This document shows, piece by piece, positions 5,050 to 31,196 of a stretch of 64,000 bases of DNA. How positions within the stretch are numbered: position 1 is the stretch's first letter; the number at the start of each line of letters is the position of its first letter. Origin of the DNA: a virus. Its lineage: Duplodnaviria > Caudoviricetes. Location of the stretch: IMG/VR virus record IMGVR_UViG_3300031992_000033, positions 1 through 64,000 of that record. The stretch is one strand, 5' to 3'. Below the pieces are notes generated by a model. It was not told the DNA's origin. It made no database searches and was given only the letters and a program-made list of their open reading frames with translations. Both the position numbers and the translations under genes were made by a program.

Positions 5050-7197
5050 ATGGGCAATGTTTTTATGTGTCAAGAAGTCCATAGACATAGTATTATTCCT
5101 AAATTCGGTATAGACATAGGACAATACGGAAATAGATGGGAAGATGTTTTTATAAAGAATATTGACTTTTCTACTATGGACGATGCAGATGATTGGAGTT
5201 ATTTGTTCAGAGATTCCAAGGCGTATGATATTGACTTAGGCGCTATGGATAGTAGCGAAGTTACTAATATGGATCATATGTTTGAAGGAGTTAATTGCGG
5301 CACATTACACCTTGCTGGATTAACAATAGGTGAAGAAGTAAGTGCCGAAAATATTTTCAGCGGAACATTTGATTCGATAGATTTTACCAATGCTAAGTTT
5401 TATAGTCTGCCCGCCAATATGTTTAATGGTGCGGTAGTAAGAAATGGAATCCAATTAAGAACACTTGACACCTCAAGGCTAACAAGTCTTAGCGGTATGT
5501 TTAGTAATTCAGAAATTGCCGCTGTGGATTTAACTGGATTAGATACGTCTAATATAACAGATATGAGTAATATGTTTTATTATGCAAATATTCCAGTTTT
5601 GCTTGGATTAAAAACGTTAGACTATTCCAAGGTAACTAATGCTTCGAACATGTTTAGCAGTGCTTCTCTAGCATCCATTGATTTGTCGGGTATTAATTTT
5701 GCGTCATTGCAAGATGCGTCTTATATGTTTTGCAATGTTCGAACTGGAGGCTCTAATATTTTAACCATCAACTTATCTAATTGTAGATTTCCATCATTAA
5801 CTAATGCGTATGAAATGTTTTATGATTATAATAAACAATCTCATTTGATATTGACTGGATCTACTTTTGTATCTAATGGATTAAATGCAGCCTATATGTT
5901 TCAATATAGAAATGAACCTAATGGATTAGACCTTTCTGGCTTCGAGAGTGTAAAAATTAATGGGTGTTATAGTATGTTCTCGGATTGTGTTTTAGGAGCA
6001 ACTGATTTTTCTGTATTAGATTTCTCAGAAATGACAAGTAATGATTGGGTATTCCAGAGATGTGAAACACCTGAGATTCATTTAAGCACCAGACTTCCTA
6101 ATGACGTTACTAGTTATTATACATGGTATATAACTTATGGGGCAAAGGCTGATAATTATATTTTTGAACTCGTATTTCCATTTAACAATTCTAGTTTGGG
6201 TTATTTATTTTATGGCGATAAAGAAGGTAGTACATTTTTGTTGGATAATAGTGAAATTTATGCCACTGGTTTAAGATACTTCGGGTACTGTAAAGAAAAT
6301 ACAACCATTACCATAGAGGATTCAATTCTGCATATAGGTGATCATGGTGATTTAGGAAGTATGCTTTATTATATGCCTCATACTAGTGAGATAGATATGG
6401 GAGGATTAGTGATTGATGGAACTGTTACGTCCTCTTCTTATTTTATGTGTTACGGAACTCCAAGAGAAATAACGCTGCCTAATACAGGAATTAAATTTAC
6501 TGGAGAACTCTATTACTTTTTATATGGTACTACTAGATGGAATGAACAGACGCAAAGAAGTGAACCTTATGATATTGTTGTAAATAATTTAGACAAATTA
6601 GACGTTAGAGGAATTACACGTATGTATAATCTGTTTTATTATTTAGACGGAACGTTTGATGTGTCTGATTGGAACACTGAGTCTTTGGTTCGAATGGAAT
6701 ATTTAATAAATTCTAGTAGTGGAAATTATAATTTAAGTAATTGGAACACTGAAAATGTAACGTATATTAATTCAATTGTAAGTTCTTCACATGGCTATTT
6801 CGATTTAAGAAATTGGGATTTATCAAATTTAACATACTTATATGGAATAAGTTTAGATGGATACGAAAATTCTTACGTTGATTTGGATGGATGGAAAGTA
6901 AGTCCTGATTTACAAGTAGGTAACTTTTATGTATTAAGTGCATATAGTAATTACACATCTTCTACCTTGAATCATATTATTTACCTACCTAATACTCTTT
7001 ATCAGCCAACATCTTATCCAAATGATTCATTTGGGTATGGTGAAAATGTAATAATAGACGTTTACACTAATGCTTCAAGCATAGAAGAACAGGGATGGAG
7101 ATTCCCTCATATATATTCTGAGTCAGAGCCATATGGTTATAGGATTCATCTTAACACAACACATGATGATTTTTTGAACGCAGTAGGAGGTGATTAA
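5050..7197 (+). CDS. BspA/DUF285-type surface-repeat (LRR-like) protein
   Basis: Many DxSxVTxMxxMF repeats (DSSEVTNMDHMF, DTSNITDMSNMF, DYSKVTNASNMF). Confidence 0.8.
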   Translation: MGNVFMCQEVHRHSIIPKFGIDIGQYGNRWEDVFIKNIDFSTMDDADDWSYLFRDSKAYDIDLGAMDSSEVTNMDHMFEGVNCGTLHLAGLTIGEEVSAENIFSGTFDSIDFTNAKFYSLPANMFNGAVVRNGIQLRTLDTSRLTSLSGMFSNSEIAAVDLTGLDTSNITDMSNMFYYANIPVLLGLKTLDYSKVTNASNMFSSASLASIDLSGINFASLQDASYMFCNVRTGGSNILTINLSNCRFPSLTNAYEMFYDYNKQSHLILTGSTFVSNGLNAAYMFQYRNEPNGLDLSGFESVKINGCYSMFSDCVLGATDFSVLDFSEMTSNDWVFQRCETPEIHLSTRLPNDVTSYYTWYITYGAKADNYIFELVFPFNNSSLGYLFYGDKEGSTFLLDNSEIYATGLRYFGYCKENTTITIEDSILHIGDHGDLGSMLYYMPHTSEIDMGGLVIDGTVTSSSYFMCYGTPREITLPNTGIKFTGELYYFLYGTTRWNEQTQRSEPYDIVVNNLDKLDVRGITRMYNLFYYLDGTFDVSDWNTESLVRMEYLINSSSGNYNLSNWNTENVTYINSIVSSSHGYFDLRNWDLSNLTYLYGISLDGYENSYVDLDGWKVSPDLQVGNFYVLSAYSNYTSSTLNHIIYLPNTLYQPTSYPNDSFGYGENVIIDVYTNASSIEEQGWRFPHIYSESEPYGYRIHLNTTHDDFLNAVGGD

Positions 7198-24750: not shown

Positions 24751-25935
24751 TTAATGCGCCTTGAAGTTATATATAGGTCTGATATTGTCAACAATGTCTA
24801 CAGTGTCCTGTATATTCTTAACAATTTCGTCCATAGGCTTATAGACCGCGGGTGCTTCGTCAATAGTAGACTCTACAACTGAAGTGGAATAAATGCCTTG
24901 CATAGATTCCTTGAAGTCTTCGAGAGACAAAGCGTCCTTTGCGGCAGACCTAGAGAGTATTCTTCCCGCACCATGAGGCGCAGAATAATTCCAGTCAGGA
25001 TTACCCTTGCCAATACAAATAAGAGATCCGTCGCGCATATTCATAGGGATGATAACCCTCTCTCCTTTACGTGCTGAGATAGAACCCTTACGTAAAATCA
25101 TATCGTCCATATTTATGTAGTTGTGGATTGTATCGAAAGACTCAACCTCTGTGAGATTGGTAGCCTCAAGAATAATGTTGGCAATTGTTCTACGATTAAG
25201 TTTAGCATAATCTTGAGCAATTGACATATCGTGAATGTACTCTGTGAAAGTGTCTCCTTCTATATAGCAGAGATCATCGGGGATCGATTGTTTCTGCATC
25301 TTAAGAATCTTTATAGTGTTTTCAATATCTCTTTCCTTGCCCTCGGCTTTTAGACGCTTAATGGTAGCATCAATTTTTGCTCCAATTTCGTTGTTACGAA
25401 GAGCATTGATACCAGCCCTCTGATAATGTTTACATACCTCAATTCCAAGATGACGAGAGCCAGTATGAATTACTAGCCAATAGTTCCCATTAACATCCTT
25501 ATCTACTTCAATGAAGTGGTTGCCGCCACCGAGTGACCCAATAGATTTATCGGCATGATCTATGTCTATAGGTGCAATAATATCCTTAAGTGGTTCATAT
25601 TTGACAATCGCTCGCTCGTGAATTGAAAATCCAGAAGGGACTTTTTCGTTGATTATGGTGTCAAGTTTTTTTAAATCAACATTGCCGTCAAGTCTTACAG
25701 CCAACATTCCGCATCCAATATCAACGCCGACTAGATTAGGAACAACCTTATCTCTAAGTTGGATTGTTGTACCAACAACACATCCAGCCCCAGCGTGACA
25801 GTCGGGCATAATTCTAGTCTGACAGTCCTCCATATAAGGCATATTCATTAACTGGATAACCTGAGAAATTGTTTCTGAATCAATGTTGTCAGTAAACACT
25901 TTAGCCGTATTATATTTTCCTGTTAACTCTAACAT
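24751..25935 (-). CDS. rtcB: RtcB RNA ligase (2',3'-cyclic/3'-phosphate to 5'-OH)
   Basis: MPDCHAG, GVDIGCG, SLGGGNHFIE, HTGSR, HNY, RKG, SAPHGAGR, DEAPAVYK. Confidence 0.97.
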   Translation of the reverse strand: MLELTGKYNTAKVFTDNIDSETISQVIQLMNMPYMEDCQTRIMPDCHAGAGCVVGTTIQLRDKVVPNLVGVDIGCGMLAVRLDGNVDLKKLDTIINEKVPSGFSIHERAIVKYEPLKDIIAPIDIDHADKSIGSLGGGNHFIEVDKDVNGNYWLVIHTGSRHLGIEVCKHYQRAGINALRNNEIGAKIDATIKRLKAEGKERDIENTIKILKMQKQSIPDDLCYIEGDTFTEYIHDMSIAQDYAKLNRRTIANIILEATNLTEVESFDTIHNYINMDDMILRKGSISARKGERVIIPMNMRDGSLICIGKGNPDWNYSAPHGAGRILSRSAAKDALSLEDFKESMQGIYSTSVVESTIDEAPAVYKPMDEIVKNIQDTVDIVDNIRPIYNFKAH

Positions 25936-26205: not shown

Positions 26206-26352
26206 TAATGCGGGTGAGGACTCGAACCTCACACGAGCCGATATCTGCTCAGATTAGTGGGATTTGAACCGCTTTGCCCCTTACTGCCATCAGTCTTTAA
26301 CTACGGGGTTTTCCTAACATTTCTCTGCGTATACCATTTTCGCCACCGCATT
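26206..26352 (-). ncRNA. tRNA-Leu-like RNA with anticodon arm replaced by a ~70-nt insert (copy 1)
   Basis: AATGCGG/CCGCATT acceptor, TGGCGAAAATGGTATACGC D arm, GAGC..GCTC variable arm, GTGAGGTTCGAGTCCTCAC T arm. Confidence 0.7.
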
Positions 26353-26494: not shown

Positions 26495-26642
26495 ATCCGT
26501 GAGAGGGATTCGAACCCCACACGAGCGACCTAGCCAACCATAAAACCTCGCTCCCACTTGTCCTGTTGTATCTTATATGATCAACAGTTTATACTCACAT
26601 AAGAAATGGTTGATGTGCGTCTGCCAATTCCGCCATCACGGA
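26495..26642 (-). ncRNA. tRNA-Leu-like RNA with anticodon arm replaced by a ~60-nt insert (copy 2)
   Basis: TCCGTGA/TCACGGA acceptor, TGGCGGAATTGGCAGACGC D arm, GAGCGA..TCGCTC arm, GGGGTTCGAATCCCTC T arm. Confidence 0.7.
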
Positions 26643-26720: not shown

Positions 26721-26940
26721 ATAATAAAATAAGCAGCAGCCGTTGTGTTCATTCACTTCTACTACTGCGCCCCAAACGTGTGAGTTTATTAATCACGTCA
26801 GGGTTTAGGACGAATAGAGAAACTCAAACTCTATCCCACCGAGGTATACATCCCTCGTTCCACCGATACTATCCTTGGATTATCCAAACGCTCTGGGCTT
26901 AATAGCCTATTTATACTCGCCCAGACGAGTTATTTTAACT

Positions 26941-27193: not shown

Positions 27194-27264
27194 TTGGAAT
27201 AGTGGGACTCGAACCCTACTCTTCCCTCTAATCTGAGGGCGTGCTGCTGTTACACTATATTCCT
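27194..27264 (-). ncRNA. tRNA-like RNA / pseudo-tRNA with a 6-nt anticodon loop
   Basis: Acceptor, D and T arms present; CCCTC-AGATTA-GAGGG; D loop AACAGCA lacks GG. Confidence 0.6.
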
Positions 27265-27569: not shown

Positions 27570-27639
27570 TGCCCTCCAACAGATTTGAACTGAAATCTTA
27601 GGAATAAATTCCTACATCCGACCATTAGACGAAAAGGGC
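27570..27639 (-). ncRNA. Glu-like pseudo-tRNA without a valid anticodon loop
   Basis: GCCCTTT/GGAGGGC, GTCTAATGGTCGGAT D arm, TAGGA-ATTTAT-TCCTA 6-nt loop, GTTCAAATC T loop. Confidence 0.6.
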
Positions 27640-27852: not shown

Positions 27853-28014
27853 GATAGGAATTTTCCATATGACAAAGATTCCTGAACTTTACCATATGAG
27901 TCAGAGTTCTCTATTAACTCTGCCGCTCTCTAAAGCACCACCATAGCCTTTTCATAGTCCTCGGTTTTAGTACGAGACGGGAATTGAGAGGTGGCAAGAA
28001 ACCCTTACTTCGAG

Positions 28015-28102
28015 TGATCTAGGAAGGAATCGAACCTCCACTAGCGATAAGACCTAACGCCGTTCTACGCGCTTAAAATATCTTCCATTAAACTACTAGA
28101 CC
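28015..28102 (-). ncRNA. tRNA-like RNA with expanded D loop and degenerate anticodon arm
   Basis: GGTCTAG/CTAGATC acceptor, GGAGGTTCGATTCCTTC T arm, ~24-nt D loop, loop AG GTC TT. Confidence 0.55.
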
Positions 28103-28549: not shown

Positions 28550-28554
28550 GGAAA

Positions 28555-28633
28555 AGGACACTTTGTGGATTTGAACCACGTAATCTGATTTACAGTCAAA
28601 TGTTAACCAAAATTGATTTGCTGTGAGCGTCCC
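28555..28633 (-). ncRNA. ACAGCAA-motif RNA carrying a Tyr(GUA) anticodon arm and a T arm
   Basis: GGGACGCTC-ACAGCAA...TTTGA-CT GTA AA-TCAGA..GTGG-TTCAAAT-CCAC..AGTGTCCT. Confidence 0.8.
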
Positions 28634-28776
28634 AAGTGTTGTAAACTAGTATATACTCGCGAGATTACCTAGAAGCGTTCCGCCAATTCTTTGCATCATT
28701 GACAACGTGCTCAACGTATAGTCTATTCTGCTACCTGACTACTAGGGATAGGCTTCACCGCGCCTATAGACGGGCG

Positions 28777-29039: not shown

Positions 29040-29075
29040 AAAAGTTAATAGGGGCATTGTAAAAATACCCCTATT
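29040..29075 (-). terminator. Terminator-like hairpin after the DUF2828 gene
   Basis: Minus strand AATAGGGGTATT...AATGCCCCTATT then AACTTTT. Confidence 0.6.
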
Positions 29076-29085
29076 TGTTTTTGAA

Positions 29086-30564
29086 TTACGCTATGGTGAT
29101 GGGAAGATACCTCTCAGAATTGAGTGTCTTAAGCATTGCCTCTACGGGAGTCATGTTGAGACAGTCAATCAAATTCTTGAAGGTAGATGTGGAATGACCT
29201 GAAACAAGTTGTACGCCCTTCCTGTTGCTGTCTGAATGGAAAACATCGTGTCTGCTGTTTACATTCCAGAATACTACATTAGGGATCTCATATCCATGTG
29301 ATGCAAACAAAGCCTTTACCTCGTCATAGAAGAGCCAATCTCTATTGGAGCACTGATTAATCTCCATGTCAGTAATAACCGTAATGGCTACAGGCATTTC
29401 CTCAGAAGGGATATTGTACTTGATGGCAATGTCAAGCACTTTTTCAAATGCTTTATAAAGATCGGTGGAAAAGCCCCAATTCGACTCTGATATATCGTAT
29501 ATCTTTTGCGCGAGAGTTTCTCCCTCAATATTTATAAGGGTTGGATTGTCACTAAAGGTCATAAAGAGATTATGAAATGCTCCCTTGTTTCTTTCTGCAA
29601 AATACATTGCAAGACCAATAGAACTTGCCATAGGTCTACCCATCATAGATCCAGACACATCCGCCATAACAAGGACGTTACCGCTCTCAACATAGTTAGG
29701 AAGTTGTCTCCACTGTGCCTCGAGTACGTCAGCGTCAGAAGGATTAAGATTAATGCTATATCCATTAAAATATTTCTCGACGATATCATAAGGATACAGT
29801 GTTGCACTATTAATCTTCTCCTCGCCCTTAAGAGCGCTCTGTACATAATCGCTAAAGCGCTCACCATCATGACGTGCAAACGCGCTTCTGTAGATCATCA
29901 TAGCCCTACTGGGAACTTCCGAGTACTTAATCTTATCCCACTGATTGGTAGACATATAACTCTCTACAATGTTAATGCGTCTGCGCATATTTCTAAGAAT
30001 ACGCTTAAACACCTTGACCTTATAGCCAAGTTTAATCGCGGTGAGAATACCAAGTTTGCGGGTCTTTGCAGAAGATGCATCAGGAGTCTTGATCCACTTT
30101 GCAAGCAAGGAAATGGCGTTGCCATCTTCGAGATTTGCAAGATCCTCTTCGAACTGTGTCTTCATTGCCGCCCACATCTTATCCTCAAGGGGAGTGCCGA
30201 CGAAGCAATAGAGATCATCGTATCTTCCGTATACACCAATAAGATCCATGTTGTTGATGATTGCTTCGGGATGATAGGTGGCAGCATATGCCAAGAGGTG
30301 ACGAACCACATCTCTTTCTCCAAGTCCACCCCTTACGTCTCTTGCGTAGAAAATAGTCTTTACGGCAAGAAGAGGGTTCTCTTTATATGCCTCAGAGAAC
30401 AGAATTTCTGCTCTGGTATAATCGATGCGATCCTCGTTACGAAGCGCACCAATTACGGAATAAAAATTGAGGCAAGCATCGCCAGTTGACTTAATTGCGT
30501 ATGCGCCATTTTCGGTACGTGTGCCATTCTCTTCTCTCTTCATTGCTTCTGCAAAACTATTCAT
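29086..30564 (-). CDS. DUF2828-family protein (helical domain + vWA; TROVE/Ro60-like architecture)
   Basis: TENGA..STG, RDVRGGLGER, YGRYDDL, SLLAKW, VPSRAM, KINSATLYPYDIV, MIDAS DVSGSM, TFS, TDME, VFWN; AAGGAG RBS before MNSF. Confidence 0.85.
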   Translation of the reverse strand: MNSFAEAMKREENGTRTENGAYAIKSTGDACLNFYSVIGALRNEDRIDYTRAEILFSEAYKENPLLAVKTIFYARDVRGGLGERDVVRHLLAYAATYHPEAIINNMDLIGVYGRYDDLYCFVGTPLEDKMWAAMKTQFEEDLANLEDGNAISLLAKWIKTPDASSAKTRKLGILTAIKLGYKVKVFKRILRNMRRRINIVESYMSTNQWDKIKYSEVPSRAMMIYRSAFARHDGERFSDYVQSALKGEEKINSATLYPYDIVEKYFNGYSINLNPSDADVLEAQWRQLPNYVESGNVLVMADVSGSMMGRPMASSIGLAMYFAERNKGAFHNLFMTFSDNPTLINIEGETLAQKIYDISESNWGFSTDLYKAFEKVLDIAIKYNIPSEEMPVAITVITDMEINQCSNRDWLFYDEVKALFASHGYEIPNVVFWNVNSRHDVFHSDSNRKGVQLVSGHSTSTFKNLIDCLNMTPVEAMLKTLNSERYLPITIA

Positions 30565-30590
30565 CTCTTTTCTCCTTTTCTTCATTAAAC

Positions 30591-30654
30591 ATGACTCATT
30601 TTTTCTCGTTACTATATGCGATAGAGTTTATTTTAACGTTGCTGTATGAGTCAC
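30591..30654 (-). ncRNA. ACAGCAA-motif RNA, adjacent to the DUF2828 start
   Basis: GTGACTCAT-ACAGCAA-CGTTA..CTAT/ATAG..TAACG..ATGAGTCAT. Confidence 0.75.
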
Positions 30655-30661
30655 AAGTTAC

Positions 30662-30740
30662 ATGATACCTTACATTCAATGGCAAAAAGTGTTTAAAATA
30701 ACTATTTGTTCAGATAGGATGTGTTTGCTGTAAGTATCAC
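30662..30740 (-). ncRNA. ACAGCAA-motif RNA
   Basis: GTGATACTT-ACAGCAA..CTAT-CTGAACAA-ATAG..AGGTATCAT. Confidence 0.75.
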
Positions 30741-30744
30741 TAAA

Positions 30745-30860
30745 TGGGAAGGGCGGGACTCGAACCCACAACCCACGGATTACCAGTCAATGTTTTCTGC
30801 TGTTTATATCCCCGTCAGGACATCTTTTTTACGTCGCTCTACCTTTTGAGCTACCTTCCC
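30745..30860 (-). ncRNA. tRNA-Thr(GGT)-like chimera with a permuted ACAGCAG module in the anticodon stem
   Basis: GGGAAGG/CCTTCCC acceptor, canonical D and T arms, ACG[43-nt insert]GA-CT GGT AA-TCCGT. Confidence 0.8.
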
Positions 30861-30863
30861 CAA

Positions 30864-30937
30864 CGACCCAAGGGAGACTTGAACTCCCGACCTCTTGCGT
30901 GACAGGCAAGCGTTCTAACCAACTGAACTATTGAGCC
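30864..30937 (-). tRNA. tRNA-Asp(GTC)
   Basis: GGCTCAA/TTGGGTC; CTTGC-CT GTC AC-GCAAG. Confidence 0.95.
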
Positions 30938-30943
30938 ACTTTT

Positions 30944-31004
30944 ATGACGCGTATAGGGTGTATAATTAACAGTTATATCCTCGAATAATTGCTGTATGCG
31001 TCAC
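30944..31004 (-). ncRNA. ACAGCAA-motif RNA carrying an Asn(GUU) anticodon stem-loop
   Basis: GTGACGCAT-ACAGCAA..TATAA-CT GTT AA-TTATA..ACGCGTCAT. Confidence 0.8.
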
Positions 31005-31015
31005 ATTCTTTTTAT

Positions 31016-31044
31016 ATTATATCATATTGTTTTCACTTTGTCAA
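31016..31044 (-). promoter_or_regulatory. sigmaA-type promoter of the ACAGCAA-RNA/DUF2828 unit
   Basis: TTGACA-17-TATAAT with TG extension; predicted start ~31009, just before the first motif RNA. Confidence 0.85.
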
Positions 31045-31167: not shown

Positions 31168-31196
31168 ATTATATCACATTTGCATCTAAATGTCAA
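31168..31196 (-). promoter_or_regulatory. sigmaA-type promoter at the head of the tRNA array
   Basis: TTGACA-17-TATAAT with TG extension; -35 lies within the gmk 3' end. Confidence 0.85.

What the first reader, a model, noticed from the sequence alone, without database searches (positions are those of the whole stretch)
30745..30860. Circularly permuted ACAGCA module grafted into the anticodon stem of an otherwise complete tRNA-Thr(GGU)
Seen: acceptor (GGGAAGG/CCTTCCC), D arm and T arm are canonical. The 5' strand of the anticodon stem is split as ACG-[TAAAAAAG ATGTCCT gacg GGGATAT AA ACAGCAG AAAACATT]-GA, followed by CT GGT AA TCCGT. Removing the 43-nt insert restores a perfect ACGGA/TCCGT stem. 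The insert has the same parts as the free motif RNAs (A-rich linker, 3' stem strand, 5' stem strand GGGAY, 9-nt spacing, ACAGCA) in permuted order, closed by a 4-nt loop. Inference: the module works as a structure independent of the RNA ends. The molecule is either a tRNA with a docking handle for the DUF2828 protein or a precursor whose insert is excised and religated, with RtcB encoded nearby.
Basis: partly seen in the sequence, partly recalled or inferred. Interest (0 to 1): 0.88.

Follow-up and report, generated by a model that had tools for sequence, protein, structure and literature searches.

The report
tRNA-shaped RNA carrying Ro60-type handle
A phage gene that looks like a threonine tRNA with 43 extra bases in its anticodon stem is most likely not a tRNA awaiting splicing: it belongs to a conserved, uncatalogued family of tRNA look-alikes whose insert is probably a docking handle for a Ro60-like ring protein encoded next door.

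Summary
On the minus strand, 30745-30860 encodes a 116-nt RNA with intact acceptor, D and T arms. A 43-nt insert splits the 5' strand of the anticodon stem (ACG|GA). Removing it in silico gives a 73-nt tRNA-Thr(GGU).

The insert is a conserved module: a 7-bp hairpin, then ACAGCA exactly 9 nt from the start of its 3' arm. It is a hairpin-closed circular permutation of the free "handle" RNAs nearby.

A model built without this copy scores it at 91 bits; ordinary tRNAs score 55 or less. I found 148 such RNAs in 80 phage loci, with strong covariation. Of 75 assessable loci found by RNA pattern alone, 73 have a DUF2828 gene within 900 nt. That protein folds like Ro60 (TROVE ring plus vWA).

Best reading: an unspliced, tRNA-shaped Y-RNA analogue, an inside-out YrlA, that docks the Ro60-like protein. 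Splicing by RtcB is not supported. "Anticodons" differ between close relatives, the nearest orthologue has a non-canonical loop, three of five complete relatives lack RtcB, and no splicing endonuclease is encoded.

No binding or expression data exist. The scan has met this system before on other DNA (at least 214 genomes), including the embedded form.

The parts
30745..30860 (-). 116-nt tRNA-shaped RNA gene with handle module (whole element)
   Evidence: Leave-out covariance model R2 gives 91.1 bits, E about 1e-21. Model R1 gives 96 bits. Sequence read.
30854..30860 (-). Acceptor stem, 5' strand (GGGAAGG); pairs with 30746-30752
   Evidence: Acceptor helix is 100% paired across 28 representatives, with 6 of 7 pairs showing changes on both sides.
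30836..30851 (-). D arm (GCTC-AAAAGGTA-GAGC) with A14, A15, G18, G19
   Evidence: A15 pairs with U48 (Levitt pair), which covaries A:U / G:C in 88 of 96 family members.
30832..30834 (-). Proximal part of the anticodon stem, 5' strand (ACG, tRNA positions 27-29); pairs with CGT at 30775-30777
   Evidence: The orthologue has GCG/CGC, a compensatory change. A 3+2 split is the commonest arrangement in the family (36 of 96).
30789..30831 (-). 43-nt insert: A-rich linker, hairpin, AA, ACAGCAG, AAAACATT
   Evidence: In-silico removal gives a 73-nt tRNA.
30806..30823 (-). Handle hairpin P3: ATGTCCT / GACG loop / GGGATAT (7 bp)
   Evidence: P3 is 97% paired, with 6 of 7 pairs showing changes on both sides. 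RNAalifold recovers it independently. The TCCT/GGGA variant covaries with TCAT/GTGA.
30797..30803 (-). Conserved single-stranded core ACAGCAG (family consensus ACAGCAA), 9 nt after the start of the hairpin's 3' arm
   Evidence: The last base deviates from the near-invariant A.
30775..30788 (-). Distal anticodon stem GA/TC, 7-nt loop CTGGTAA, and the 3' strand TCCGT
   Evidence: 89 of 96 family members have a 5-bp (split) stem plus a 7-nt loop here, against 6.8% in shuffles. 73 have U33/R37, against 1.1%.
30745..30774 (-). Variable loop GGGTT, T arm GTGGG-TTCGAGT-CCCGC, acceptor 3' strand CCTTCCC, discriminator A; no encoded CCA
   Evidence: T stem 100% paired, 4 of 5 pairs with changes on both sides.
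29086..30564 (-). DUF2828 + DUF7788 gene: Ro60-like protein (TROVE-like ring plus vWA with an intact DxSxS MIDAS motif), the presumed partner
   Evidence: Pfam. AF2 model with pLDDT 84.6. The top 12 Foldseek PDB hits are all Ro60/Rsr/TROVE over the full length. D302, S304 and S306 are invariant.
30942..31006 (-). Free handle RNA 1, just downstream of a 12/12 promoter and upstream of tRNA-Asp
30660..30742 (-). Free handle RNA 2, starting 3-4 nt after the tRNA-shaped RNA
30589..30656 (-). Free handle RNA 3, ending about 25 nt before the start codon of the Ro60-like gene
31016..31044 (-). Sigma-70-type promoter TTGACA-17-TATAAT (12/12, TG-extended) that probably drives the RNA-protein operon
30863..30938 (-). 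Ordinary tRNA-Asp(GUC), 2-3 nt upstream of the element in the same transcript
29047..29075 (-). Terminator-like hairpin after the Ro60-like gene
24751..25935 (-). RtcB RNA ligase at the far end of the tRNA array (context; the link to this RNA is not conserved)

Best explanation
The element is a stable, unspliced non-coding RNA: a genuine tRNA L-shape (open 7-bp acceptor stem, D and T arms, Levitt pair, anticodon-type loop). A small 'handle' branches from the 5' strand of its anticodon stem between positions 29 and 30.

The handle is a 7-bp helix with conserved G(U/G)GA / UC(A/C)U ends, plus single-stranded ACAGCAA 9 nt along. It is the same module that closes the free small RNAs beside it, here closed by a tetraloop instead of by the RNA ends.

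Shown: the RNA family is real, structured and conserved; it travels with the DUF2828 gene; and that protein is predicted to fold like Ro60.

Inferred:
- The handle is the binding site of the Ro60-like ring, as the conserved stem of Y RNAs is for Ro60.
- The tRNA body is the effector or tether module, as in YrlA. It would present a tRNA shape and an anticodon-like loop to tRNA-handling proteins, such as processing or repair enzymes or host tRNA-cleaving nucleases during infection.
- The RNA is cut out of a promoter-driven polycistron (handle RNA, tRNA-Asp, this RNA, two handle RNAs, Ro60-like mRNA) by RNase P and 3' trimming at its tRNA-like ends.

In topology it is an inside-out YrlA.
For: - Family membership without circularity: model R2, built from 35 copies in other loci, scores the window copy 91.1 bits. 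The window's tRNAs score 55 or less.
- Structure: 95% of cells paired, 21 of 26 pairs changed on both sides, 0 of 500 shuffles as good. RNAalifold independently recovers the acceptor, D, P3 and T helices, with 19 of 22 pairs compensatory.
- tRNA tertiary signature: U8 95/96, A14 95/96, and the 15:48 Levitt pair switches between A:U (55) and G:C (33).
- Handle identity: a fixed 9-nt offset in 57/57 embedded and 199/200 free copies. The module's core positions are invariant columns, like those of the T loop.
- Linkage, starting from the RNA: 73 of 80 loci found by RNA pattern alone have the DUF2828 gene within 900 nt (median 337). Five of the seven misses are cut off by the locus end.
- Protein: the AF2 model (pLDDT 84.6) matches Ro60/Rsr/phage Ro60 over its full length (E 2.6e-8 to 3e-4, TM 0.49-0.59). 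All 12 top listed hits are Ro60-type. The MIDAS residues are invariant.
- Precedent: Ro60 binds Y RNAs encoded next to it, and YrlA Y RNAs carry a tRNA-like domain (PMC4201824; bioRxiv 10.1101/312249). A phage Ro60 binds phage-encoded Y-like RNAs (PMC12135203).
- Against a decoding role: the loop triplet differs between near relatives with the same body, and the syntenic orthologue L090:5784-5901 has the loop CAAGGGG.
Against: - There is no binding, expression or processing evidence; the protein-RNA contact is inferred from linkage and analogy.
- For this single copy, nearest-neighbour folding prefers another structure by 10 kcal/mol. In it the hairpin is replaced by GACGU-AAAAAAG-AUGUC, and ACGGG inside the insert pairs with UCCGU.
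- The window copy has ACAGCAG, not the near-invariant ACAGCAA.
- The window copy lacks the short helix that brings the insert's two ends together in many relatives (my reading).
- The handle sequence differs from the known Ro60 site (GNCGAAN0-1G in bacteria, GGUCCGA in vertebrates). DUF2828 does not match Pfam TROVE by sequence.
- The well-kept U33/R37 loop in 73 of 96 members shows that the anticodon loop matters for something this explanation does not specify.
- One handle-tagged RNA (L157) has no Ro60-like gene within 6 kb.
Confidence: 0.68

Rival explanations
1. Intron-like precursor. The 43-nt handle is cut out at both junctions, RtcB (phage or host) joins the halves, and a functional tRNA-Thr(GGU) plus a free or circular handle RNA result. 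The handle might serve as the recognition tag for the cutting machinery.
For: - Removing the insert restores a perfect 5-bp anticodon stem and a canonical loop, and ARAGORN then calls tRNA-Thr.
- The split stem is maintained by compensatory changes across the family (ACG|GA, GCG|AC, ATG|CC, GTA|CC, CG|TCC).
- RtcB is encoded 4.8 kb away on the same strand.
- 73 of 96 members keep a U33/R37 loop.
Against: - The syntenic orthologue would yield a tRNA with the loop CAAGGGG, which lacks U33.
- 19 of 78 in-silico products are 'tRNA-Ser' with a short variable arm, while a real phage tRNA-Ser(GCU) in L090 is 92 nt. Several have A34 anticodons.
- RNAs with the same body carry different triplets.
- RtcB is missing from 3 of 5 complete related genomes and from 78 of 80 RNA-anchored loci.
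- The 98%-complete phage genome has no EndA-type endonuclease.
- 43 nt is far too short for a group I intron (established knowledge).
- The module is among the best conserved parts of the molecule and also exists as about 200 stand-alone genes.
Confidence: 0.08
2. A working decoding tRNA-Thr(GGU) that keeps the handle permanently. It would be charged and used on the ribosome while also tagged for the Ro60-like protein.
For: The acceptor stem, D and T arms, tertiary-pair nucleotides and a canonical CU-GGU-AA loop are all present. The phage otherwise carries only tRNA-Thr(UGU).
Against: - The anticodon is not conserved in the orthologue or within body clusters.
- A 43-nt branch in the middle of the anticodon stem would be expected to clash with the ribosomal decoding and P sites (inference from established ribosome-tRNA structures).
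- tRNA finders reject the element as it stands.
Confidence: 0.04
3. Processing punctuation only. The tRNA shape merely recruits RNase P and RNase Z to cut the neighbouring handle RNAs and the mRNA out of the polycistron, and the embedded handle has no role of its own.
For: The element sits 2-4 nt from its neighbours in a promoter-driven array. Ordinary tRNAs play this role in many operons (established knowledge).
Against: An ordinary tRNA (tRNA-Asp) already does this job next door. The embedded handle keeps its helix by covariation, with the exact 9-nt offset, in 148 copies. That would not be maintained if it were functionless.
Confidence: 0.05
4. Decaying tRNA pseudogene with a chance insertion.
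For: The core has one deviating base (ACAGCAG), and single-sequence folding does not favour the hairpin.
Against: Covariation in every helix, the orthologue with compensatory changes, the 91-bit leave-out score and the tight gene linkage all argue against decay.
Confidence: 0.01

Closest known systems
YrlA-type Y RNAs with Ro60/Rsr in bacteria and phages (Rfam RF02553; Chen et al. 2014, PMC4201824; Wang et al. 2018, bioRxiv 10.1101/312249)
   Same: A small RNA encoded beside the gene of a Ro60-fold protein. It is modular: one part is a conserved protein-binding stem and the other a close tRNA mimic with D and T arms and a covarying Levitt pair. The protein-binding part sits on the anticodon-stem side. 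An RtcB repair ligase is nearby, as in the Salmonella rsr-yrlBA-rtcBA operon.
   Different: - Opposite topology. YrlA has its ends in the Ro60-binding stem, a loop-closed acceptor stem, and the T arm 5' of the D arm. Here the acceptor stem is open, the arm order is that of a real tRNA, and the handle is hairpin-closed.
- The handle branches from the anticodon stem and an anticodon-type loop is kept.
- The motif is different (ACAGCAA, not GNCGAAN0-1G).
- The protein is Pfam DUF2828/DUF7788, not TROVE.
- The Rfam YrlA model gives only 20.9 bits against a cut-off of 69.
Class I non-coding RNAs of dictyostelid social amoebae (Kjellin et al. 2021, PMC7919456)
   Same: The handle design is shared: a short stem, then a conserved single-stranded motif ending in ACAGCAA that begins 9 nt from the 5'-terminal G. 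Examples are GTTGACCTT-ACAGCAA, and the motif CCTTACAGCAA at position 6. An A-rich tract precedes the 3' strand, which ends in TG (sequences in the paper's supplementary code files). The phage free handle RNAs have the same offset and a ...TCATG/...TCCTG end.
   Different: - Class I RNAs are about 60-nt eukaryotic RNAs with their own DUSE promoter, are reported only in Dictyostelia, and are known to bind the RRM protein Rnp1A.
- None is described as embedded in a tRNA.
- Homology was not tested here; the resemblance rests on motif and spacing only.
Archaeal and eukaryal intron-containing or permuted pre-tRNAs (bulge-helix-bulge introns at non-canonical positions; RtcB ligation)
   Same: An insert in the anticodon stem whose removal restores a canonical tRNA, with an RtcB-family ligase encoded nearby.
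   Different: - No splicing endonuclease gene in the phage.
- The insert is the conserved part, and it also exists on its own.
- The products would often be non-functional.
Thermus phage phiLo Ro60 with Yrl1/Yrl2 (PMC12135203; PDB 9KOP, 9L5Y)
   Same: A phage-encoded Ro60-fold protein with partner RNAs encoded just upstream. 9L5Y and 9KOP are among the top structural matches of the window's protein.
   Different: The phiLo RNAs are classical stem-bulge-stem Y RNAs with a CGAA motif and no tRNA body or ACAGCAA.

Membership tests
Handle-tagged (helix + ACAGCAA) RNAs beside DUF2828/Ro60-like genes, tRNA-embedded subclass (uncatalogued; defined here) | Scores with a covariance model of the family built without it | tested here: met
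   R2 gives 91.1 bits, E about 1e-21; ordinary tRNAs score 55 bits or less.
Handle-tagged (helix + ACAGCAA) RNAs beside DUF2828/Ro60-like genes, tRNA-embedded subclass (uncatalogued; defined here) | 7-bp helix with G(T/G)GA...TC(A/C)T ends and ACAGCAA exactly 9 nt from the first G | tested here: met
   GGGATATAA then ACAGCAG. The offset is 9, as in 57/57 embedded and 199/200 free copies. The last core base is G instead of A.
Handle-tagged (helix + ACAGCAA) RNAs beside DUF2828/Ro60-like genes, tRNA-embedded subclass (uncatalogued; defined here) | Encoded next to a DUF2828/DUF7788 gene | tested here: met
   The gene starts 181 nt downstream on the same strand. 73 of 75 assessable RNA-first loci show the same linkage.
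Handle-tagged (helix + ACAGCAA) RNAs beside DUF2828/Ro60-like genes, tRNA-embedded subclass (uncatalogued; defined here) | The handle binds the Ro60-like protein | not testable with these tools
   Needs EMSA, RIP or a structure.
YrlA (Rfam RF02553) | Reaches the Rfam gathering score | tested here: not met
   20.9 bits against 69, E 0.73, and the match spans parts of two genes.
YrlA (Rfam RF02553) | 5' and 3' ends pair to form the Ro60-binding stem; the acceptor stem is closed by a loop; the T arm lies 5' of the D arm | tested here: not met
   Here the ends form a 7-bp acceptor stem, D precedes T, and the handle is hairpin-closed (definition).
YrlA (Rfam RF02553) | GNCGAAN0-1G motif in the 5' strand of the stem | tested here: not met
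   The motif is absent from the 116 nt read. The conserved motif is ACAGCAA.
YrlA (Rfam RF02553) | tRNA-like domain with tRNA tertiary pairs, next to a Ro60-fold protein gene | tested here: met
   Levitt pair covariation, U8, A14 and GG. The protein matches the Ro60 fold, although Pfam calls it DUF2828, not TROVE.
Canonical decoding tRNA (Rfam RF00005 / ARAGORN) | Recognised by tRNA finders; contiguous 5-bp anticodon stem | tested here: not met
   Not called. It is called only after in-silico deletion of 43 nt.
Canonical decoding tRNA (Rfam RF00005 / ARAGORN) | Anticodon and identity conserved among orthologues | tested here: not met
   The orthologue's loop is CAAGGGG. Triplets differ within body clusters.
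Canonical decoding tRNA (Rfam RF00005 / ARAGORN) | Aminoacylation and use on the ribosome | not testable with these tools
   Needs acid-gel or ribosome-association assays.
Intron-containing pre-tRNA (group I, or EndA/BHB with RtcB) | Self-splicing intron of sufficient size, or a splicing endonuclease available | tested here: not met
   The insert is 43 nt. There is no PF01974 match in the 98%-complete genome, while four archaeal controls ring. A host enzyme cannot be excluded.
Intron-containing pre-tRNA (group I, or EndA/BHB with RtcB) | Ligase co-occurs with the interrupted tRNA | tested here: inconclusive
   RtcB is present here and in syntenic L090. It is absent from 3 of 5 complete related genomes. 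Many hosts have their own RtcB.
Intron-containing pre-tRNA (group I, or EndA/BHB with RtcB) | A ligated mature form exists in vivo | not testable with these tools
   Needs RNA sequencing or northern blots.
Dictyostelid Class I RNAs | Short stem joining the RNA's own ends, with an 11-nt motif (CCUUACAGCAA) next to the 5' strand, in an RNA of about 60 nt | tested here: not met
   In this element the stem is hairpin-closed inside a 116-nt tRNA shape. Only ACAGCA and the 9-nt offset are shared. The window's free copies fit the design better.

The most novel reading that the evidence does not exclude
The handle is a protein-guided, removable tag, making the RNA a 'pro-tRNA'. While the Ro60-like ring holds the handle, the molecule is inert or acts as bait. 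Under some condition, such as tRNA damage by host anticodon nucleases, the handle is cut out at the ACG|...|GA junctions. RtcB then seals the anticodon stem, releasing a fresh tRNA and a free handle RNA. This would be a tRNA splicing pathway in a bacterial virus that uses neither a group I intron nor a known splicing endonuclease.
Probability: 0.08. Interest if true: 0.85.

Novelty: new variant of a known kind. Interest (0 to 1): 0.7.

Why it matters
- Ro60 and its Y RNAs are a classic but still poorly understood RNA-surveillance particle. Here a second, sequence-unrelated-looking branch of the same protein fold (the uncharacterised DUF2828 family, also present in plants and other eukaryotes) appears with its own RNA partners.
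- These partners matched no family in Rfam 15, and none of my paper searches found a description of them.
- The tRNA-embedded form shows that the handle is a portable module. It works whether closed by the RNA ends or by a loop, and it hangs a complete tRNA shape, including an anticodon-type loop, on the protein.
- This gives a direct, testable entry to three questions: what Y-RNA-like particles do with tRNA shapes; what the particle does in the phage-host contest over tRNAs; and possibly what the long-unexplained Class I RNAs of social amoebae do, since they share the same helix-plus-ACAGCAA design.
- It is also a practical warning: such genes are missed by tRNA finders, or would be mis-annotated as intron-containing tRNAs.

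Tried and rejected
- Rfam at permissive thresholds found nothing for the insert. The only non-tRNA hits were chance-level, including YrlA at 20.9 bits.
- Nucleotide search against the phage records found only short tRNA matches and two unannotated faecal phage fragments covering the gene.
- A profile search of the protein alignment against PDB sequences did not find Ro60 (best hit a vWA 'conserved protein', E 3e-4). Only the fold comparison did.
- A paper search for 'DUF2828' returned only incidental mentions in plant and tardigrade papers.
- A text search for the 11-nt Class I motif returned only primer-type matches. The motif was confirmed from the supplementary files instead.
- Single-sequence MFE folding does not support the drawn hairpin. 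I treat this as a caveat rather than a refutation, because the orthologue's MFE does contain the hairpin and covariation supports it.
- A Thg1-like gene seen next to RtcB in L090 was looked for in this phage and not found.
- Group I intron: rejected on size. Pseudogene or chance: rejected on covariation. A cis-regulatory leader as the sole role: rejected because the element has tRNA ends and lies 181 nt upstream of the gene's start, with two other RNAs in between.

Full report
**What is there.** Read on the minus strand, 30860 to 30745 is a 116-nt element. In order it contains:
- acceptor GGGAAGG, then TA
- D arm GCTC-AAAAGGTA-GAGC, then G
- ACG
- a 43-nt insert: TAAAAAAG, ATGTCCT, GACG, GGGATAT, AA, ACAGCAG, AAAACATT
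- GA, loop CTGGTAA, TCCGT
- variable loop GGGTT
- T arm GTGGG-TTCGAGT-CCCGC
- acceptor strand CCTTCCC and discriminator A

ARAGORN and the Rfam tRNA model tRNAs in the window but not this element. When the 43 nt are removed in silico, ARAGORN calls a 73-nt tRNA-Thr(ggt).

**Setting.** The window is the first 64 kb of a 123.7-kb virus record rated 98% complete. Its closest relatives come from human faecal samples and viral metagenome contigs. On the minus strand the order is:
- a 12/12 sigma-70-type promoter (31044-31016)
- a free handle RNA
- tRNA-Asp
- this element
- two more free handle RNAs
- a 492-aa DUF2828 + DUF7788 gene (30564-29086)
- a terminator-like hairpin
- a long tRNA array containing a pistol ribozyme
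- RtcB (25935-24751)

Neighbouring RNAs are only 2-4 nt apart, so RNase P and 3' trimming at the tRNA-type ends would release them all (inference).

**The element belongs to a large conserved family.** I used DUF2828 homologues to fetch 80 viral loci. A simple structural scan found tRNA-shaped genes of 109-127 nt beside almost all of them. Each had the same hairpin + ACAGCAA element where the anticodon arm should be.
- A covariance model found 148 copies scoring above 68 bits in 80 loci, up to four per locus. Ordinary tRNAs stay at 55 bits or below.
- On 28 representatives, 95% of cells are paired and 21 of 26 pairs change on both sides. No shuffle out of 500 does as well. The acceptor and T stems are 100% paired and the handle hairpin 97%.
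- RNAalifold, without my structure, returns the same four helices.
- A second model built only from other loci, with no window copy and no nearest relative, scores the window copy 91.1 bits. Membership is therefore not circular.
- The family keeps tRNA tertiary signatures: U8, A14, GG in the D loop, and a 15:48 Levitt pair that switches between A:U and G:C. The window has A15:U48. Chen et al. used the same argument for YrlA.

**The permutation is real.** In free handle RNAs the 5' end G(T/G)GAYNN pairs with a 3' end NNRTC(A/C)T followed by G, and ACAGCAA follows the 5' strand. In the embedded form the two strands are joined by a 4-nt loop, and the rest of the RNA (here a whole tRNA) takes the place of the free RNAs' variable middle.
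- The distance from the first G to ACAGCAA is exactly 9 nt in 57/57 embedded and 199/200 free copies.
- GTGA goes with TCAT and GGGA with TCCT. The window's GGGA/TCCT is the commoner variant among free copies.
- An A-rich linker precedes the strand that corresponds to the free RNAs' 3' strand in the embedded consensus, and in some free copies.

**The split anticodon stem is also a family feature.** Of 96 distinct embedded RNAs, 89 have a fully paired 5-bp stem and a 7-nt loop immediately 5' of the variable loop. The 5' strand is contiguous, or split 2+3 or 3+2 by the insert. Shuffled controls give 6.8%. Seventy-three have U33 and a purine at 37, against 1.1% in controls.
- In 11 of the 89 the stem simply encloses the whole insert, so they have no separate anticodon hairpin.
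- The window's 3+2 split is the commonest type, and the split helix covaries: ACG|GA, GCG|AC, ATG|CC, GTA|CC, CG|TCC, CG|CGC.

So the RNA is built as a three-way junction. It keeps an anticodon-type loop on display while the handle branches off.

**It is not a decoding tRNA-Thr.** The syntenic closest relative is L090: same gene order, with a Ro60-like protein 70% identical. It has the orthologue at 5784-5901, with compensatory changes in the proximal stem and the hairpin, but the loop is CAAGGGG.
- Within groups that share the same acceptor stem the triplet varies: GGA/GGU/GAU in one group, UAC/AAC in another.
- Nineteen of 78 in-silico 'spliced' products would be tRNA-Ser with a short variable arm, although a real tRNA-Ser(GCU) in L090 is 92 nt. 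Several carry A34.

The loop shape is under selection; the codon meaning is not.

**The partner protein is a Ro60 relative.** Pfam gives only DUF2828 and DUF7788, and profile-to-PDB sequence search misses Ro60.
- An AlphaFold model (pLDDT 84.6, pTM 0.86) matches Xenopus and human Ro60, Deinococcus Rsr and the Thermus phage phiLo Ro60 over the full length. All 12 top listed hits are Ro60-type, with E 2.6e-8 to 3e-4 and TM 0.49-0.59. Isolated vWA domains follow.
- The vWA MIDAS residues are invariant in the family.
- Starting from the RNA alone, an exact-pattern scan of the viral collection returned 80 loci. Seventy-three have this gene within 900 nt (median 337), and five of the seven misses are cut by the locus end.
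- Of the two real exceptions, one is a handle-tagged acceptor/T minihelix in a tRNA array and one looks like chance inside a coding region.

**How it most likely works.** This follows the precedent of Ro60 with Y RNAs: a conserved stem binds the ring and a second module tethers an effector. YrlA's second module is a close tRNA mimic. By analogy, the handle would dock the Ro60-like ring, and the tRNA body would present a tRNA shape to tRNA-handling proteins.
- Shown: the family, its structure, its linkage to the gene, and the protein's fold.
- Inferred: binding, processing, and the effector.
- Topology: the RNA is an inside-out YrlA. YrlA has its ends in the Ro60 stem and a loop-closed acceptor; this RNA has an open acceptor and a loop-closed handle.
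- What the displayed anticodon-type loop is for remains open. A bait or sensor role for tRNA-cleaving host nucleases, with RtcB repair, is attractive but untested.

**Splicing.** The excision idea is not excluded but has little support.
- The phage has no EndA-type endonuclease.
- RtcB is absent from three of five complete related genomes that carry the RNA and the protein, and is within reach in only 2 of 80 RNA-anchored loci.
- Many products would be non-functional.
- The insert is among the best conserved parts of the molecule and also exists as stand-alone genes.

**Caveats for this copy.**
- Energy-based folding prefers an alternative by 10 kcal/mol and gives the hairpin pairs a probability of 0.03. 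The orthologue's MFE does contain the hairpin.
- The core reads ACAGCAG, not ACAGCAA.
- The short helix that closes the insert in many relatives is not evident here.

**Comparison with the known.** The element is not a member of Rfam YrlA: it scores 20.9 bits against 69, and its topology and motif differ. Paper searches on DUF2828 and on Ro60/Y RNA/YrlA in phages found no description of this RNA family or of DUF2828 as a Ro60 relative. By motif, the closest published RNAs are the dictyostelid Class I RNAs. Their curated sequences start with G, run 9 nt to ACAGCAA (motif CCTTACAGCAA at position 6), have an A-rich tract and end in a complementary strand plus TG. This is the same design as the phage free handles. 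Homology was not tested.

**Earlier notes of this scan.** Notes on this same window reach the same general reading. The word index lists 289 notes in at least 214 genomes on the DUF2828/ACAGCAA system. Five of them concern tRNAs with the handle embedded, and all were judged to be unspliced mimics. I reached my reading before consulting them. The Class I lead came from them, and I checked it in the paper's supplement.

Noticed in passing
window 26206-26352 and 26495-26642 (minus): Two tRNA-like RNAs of about 147 nt with 7-bp acceptor stems, Leu/Ser-type D arms and T arms. Each has a 60-70-nt insert, without the ACAGCAA handle, where the anticodon arm should be. They score weakly with the family model (27 and 23 bits). 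Another note of this scan already lists them.
   Followed up: no
window 26868-26930 (minus): A pistol self-cleaving ribozyme (63.6 bits against a cut-off of 34.5) sits inside the tRNA array, between tRNA genes. Its 2',3'-cyclic phosphate and 5'-OH products are the end types that RtcB joins.
   Followed up: no
window 27194-27264, 27570-27639, 28015-28102, 28557-28616 (minus): Several tRNA bodies score at or just above the Rfam tRNA cut-off and have odd anticodon loops; ARAGORN reads a 4-nt 'anticodon' agaa at 28014-28102. The 28553-28635 RNA carries a free handle plus a T arm and the loop CTGTAAA.
   Followed up: partly
window 30942-31006 (minus) and L090:5911-5980: The free handle RNA upstream of tRNA-Asp contains a small hairpin with an anticodon-type loop: CTGTTAA here and CTGTAAA in the orthologue. 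These are Asn- and Tyr-like triplets. So even the free handle RNAs display anticodon-loop look-alikes whose triplet drifts.
   Followed up: partly
L090:13308-13473 (and beyond): In the syntenic relative a Thg1-family gene (tRNA 5'-end repair or guanylyltransferase type) follows RtcB. The window's own genome has no Thg1 match.
   Followed up: yes
L157:6020-6160: A handle-tagged RNA that seems to consist only of an acceptor stem, the handle and a T arm (no D arm). It lies in a tRNA array with no Ro60-like gene within 6 kb, which suggests that handles are grafted onto varied tRNA parts.
   Followed up: partly
L090:9180-9255: An otherwise normal phage tRNA-Pro(AGG) has C rather than U at position 33 of the anticodon loop (TCAGGGT). 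This may be an example of a phage tRNA with an altered loop.
   Followed up: no
window 31168-31196 and 31016-31044 (minus): Two perfect 12/12 TG-extended TTGACA-17-TATAAT promoters lie 150 nt apart. One is in front of tRNA-Met and one in front of the first handle RNA.
   Followed up: partly
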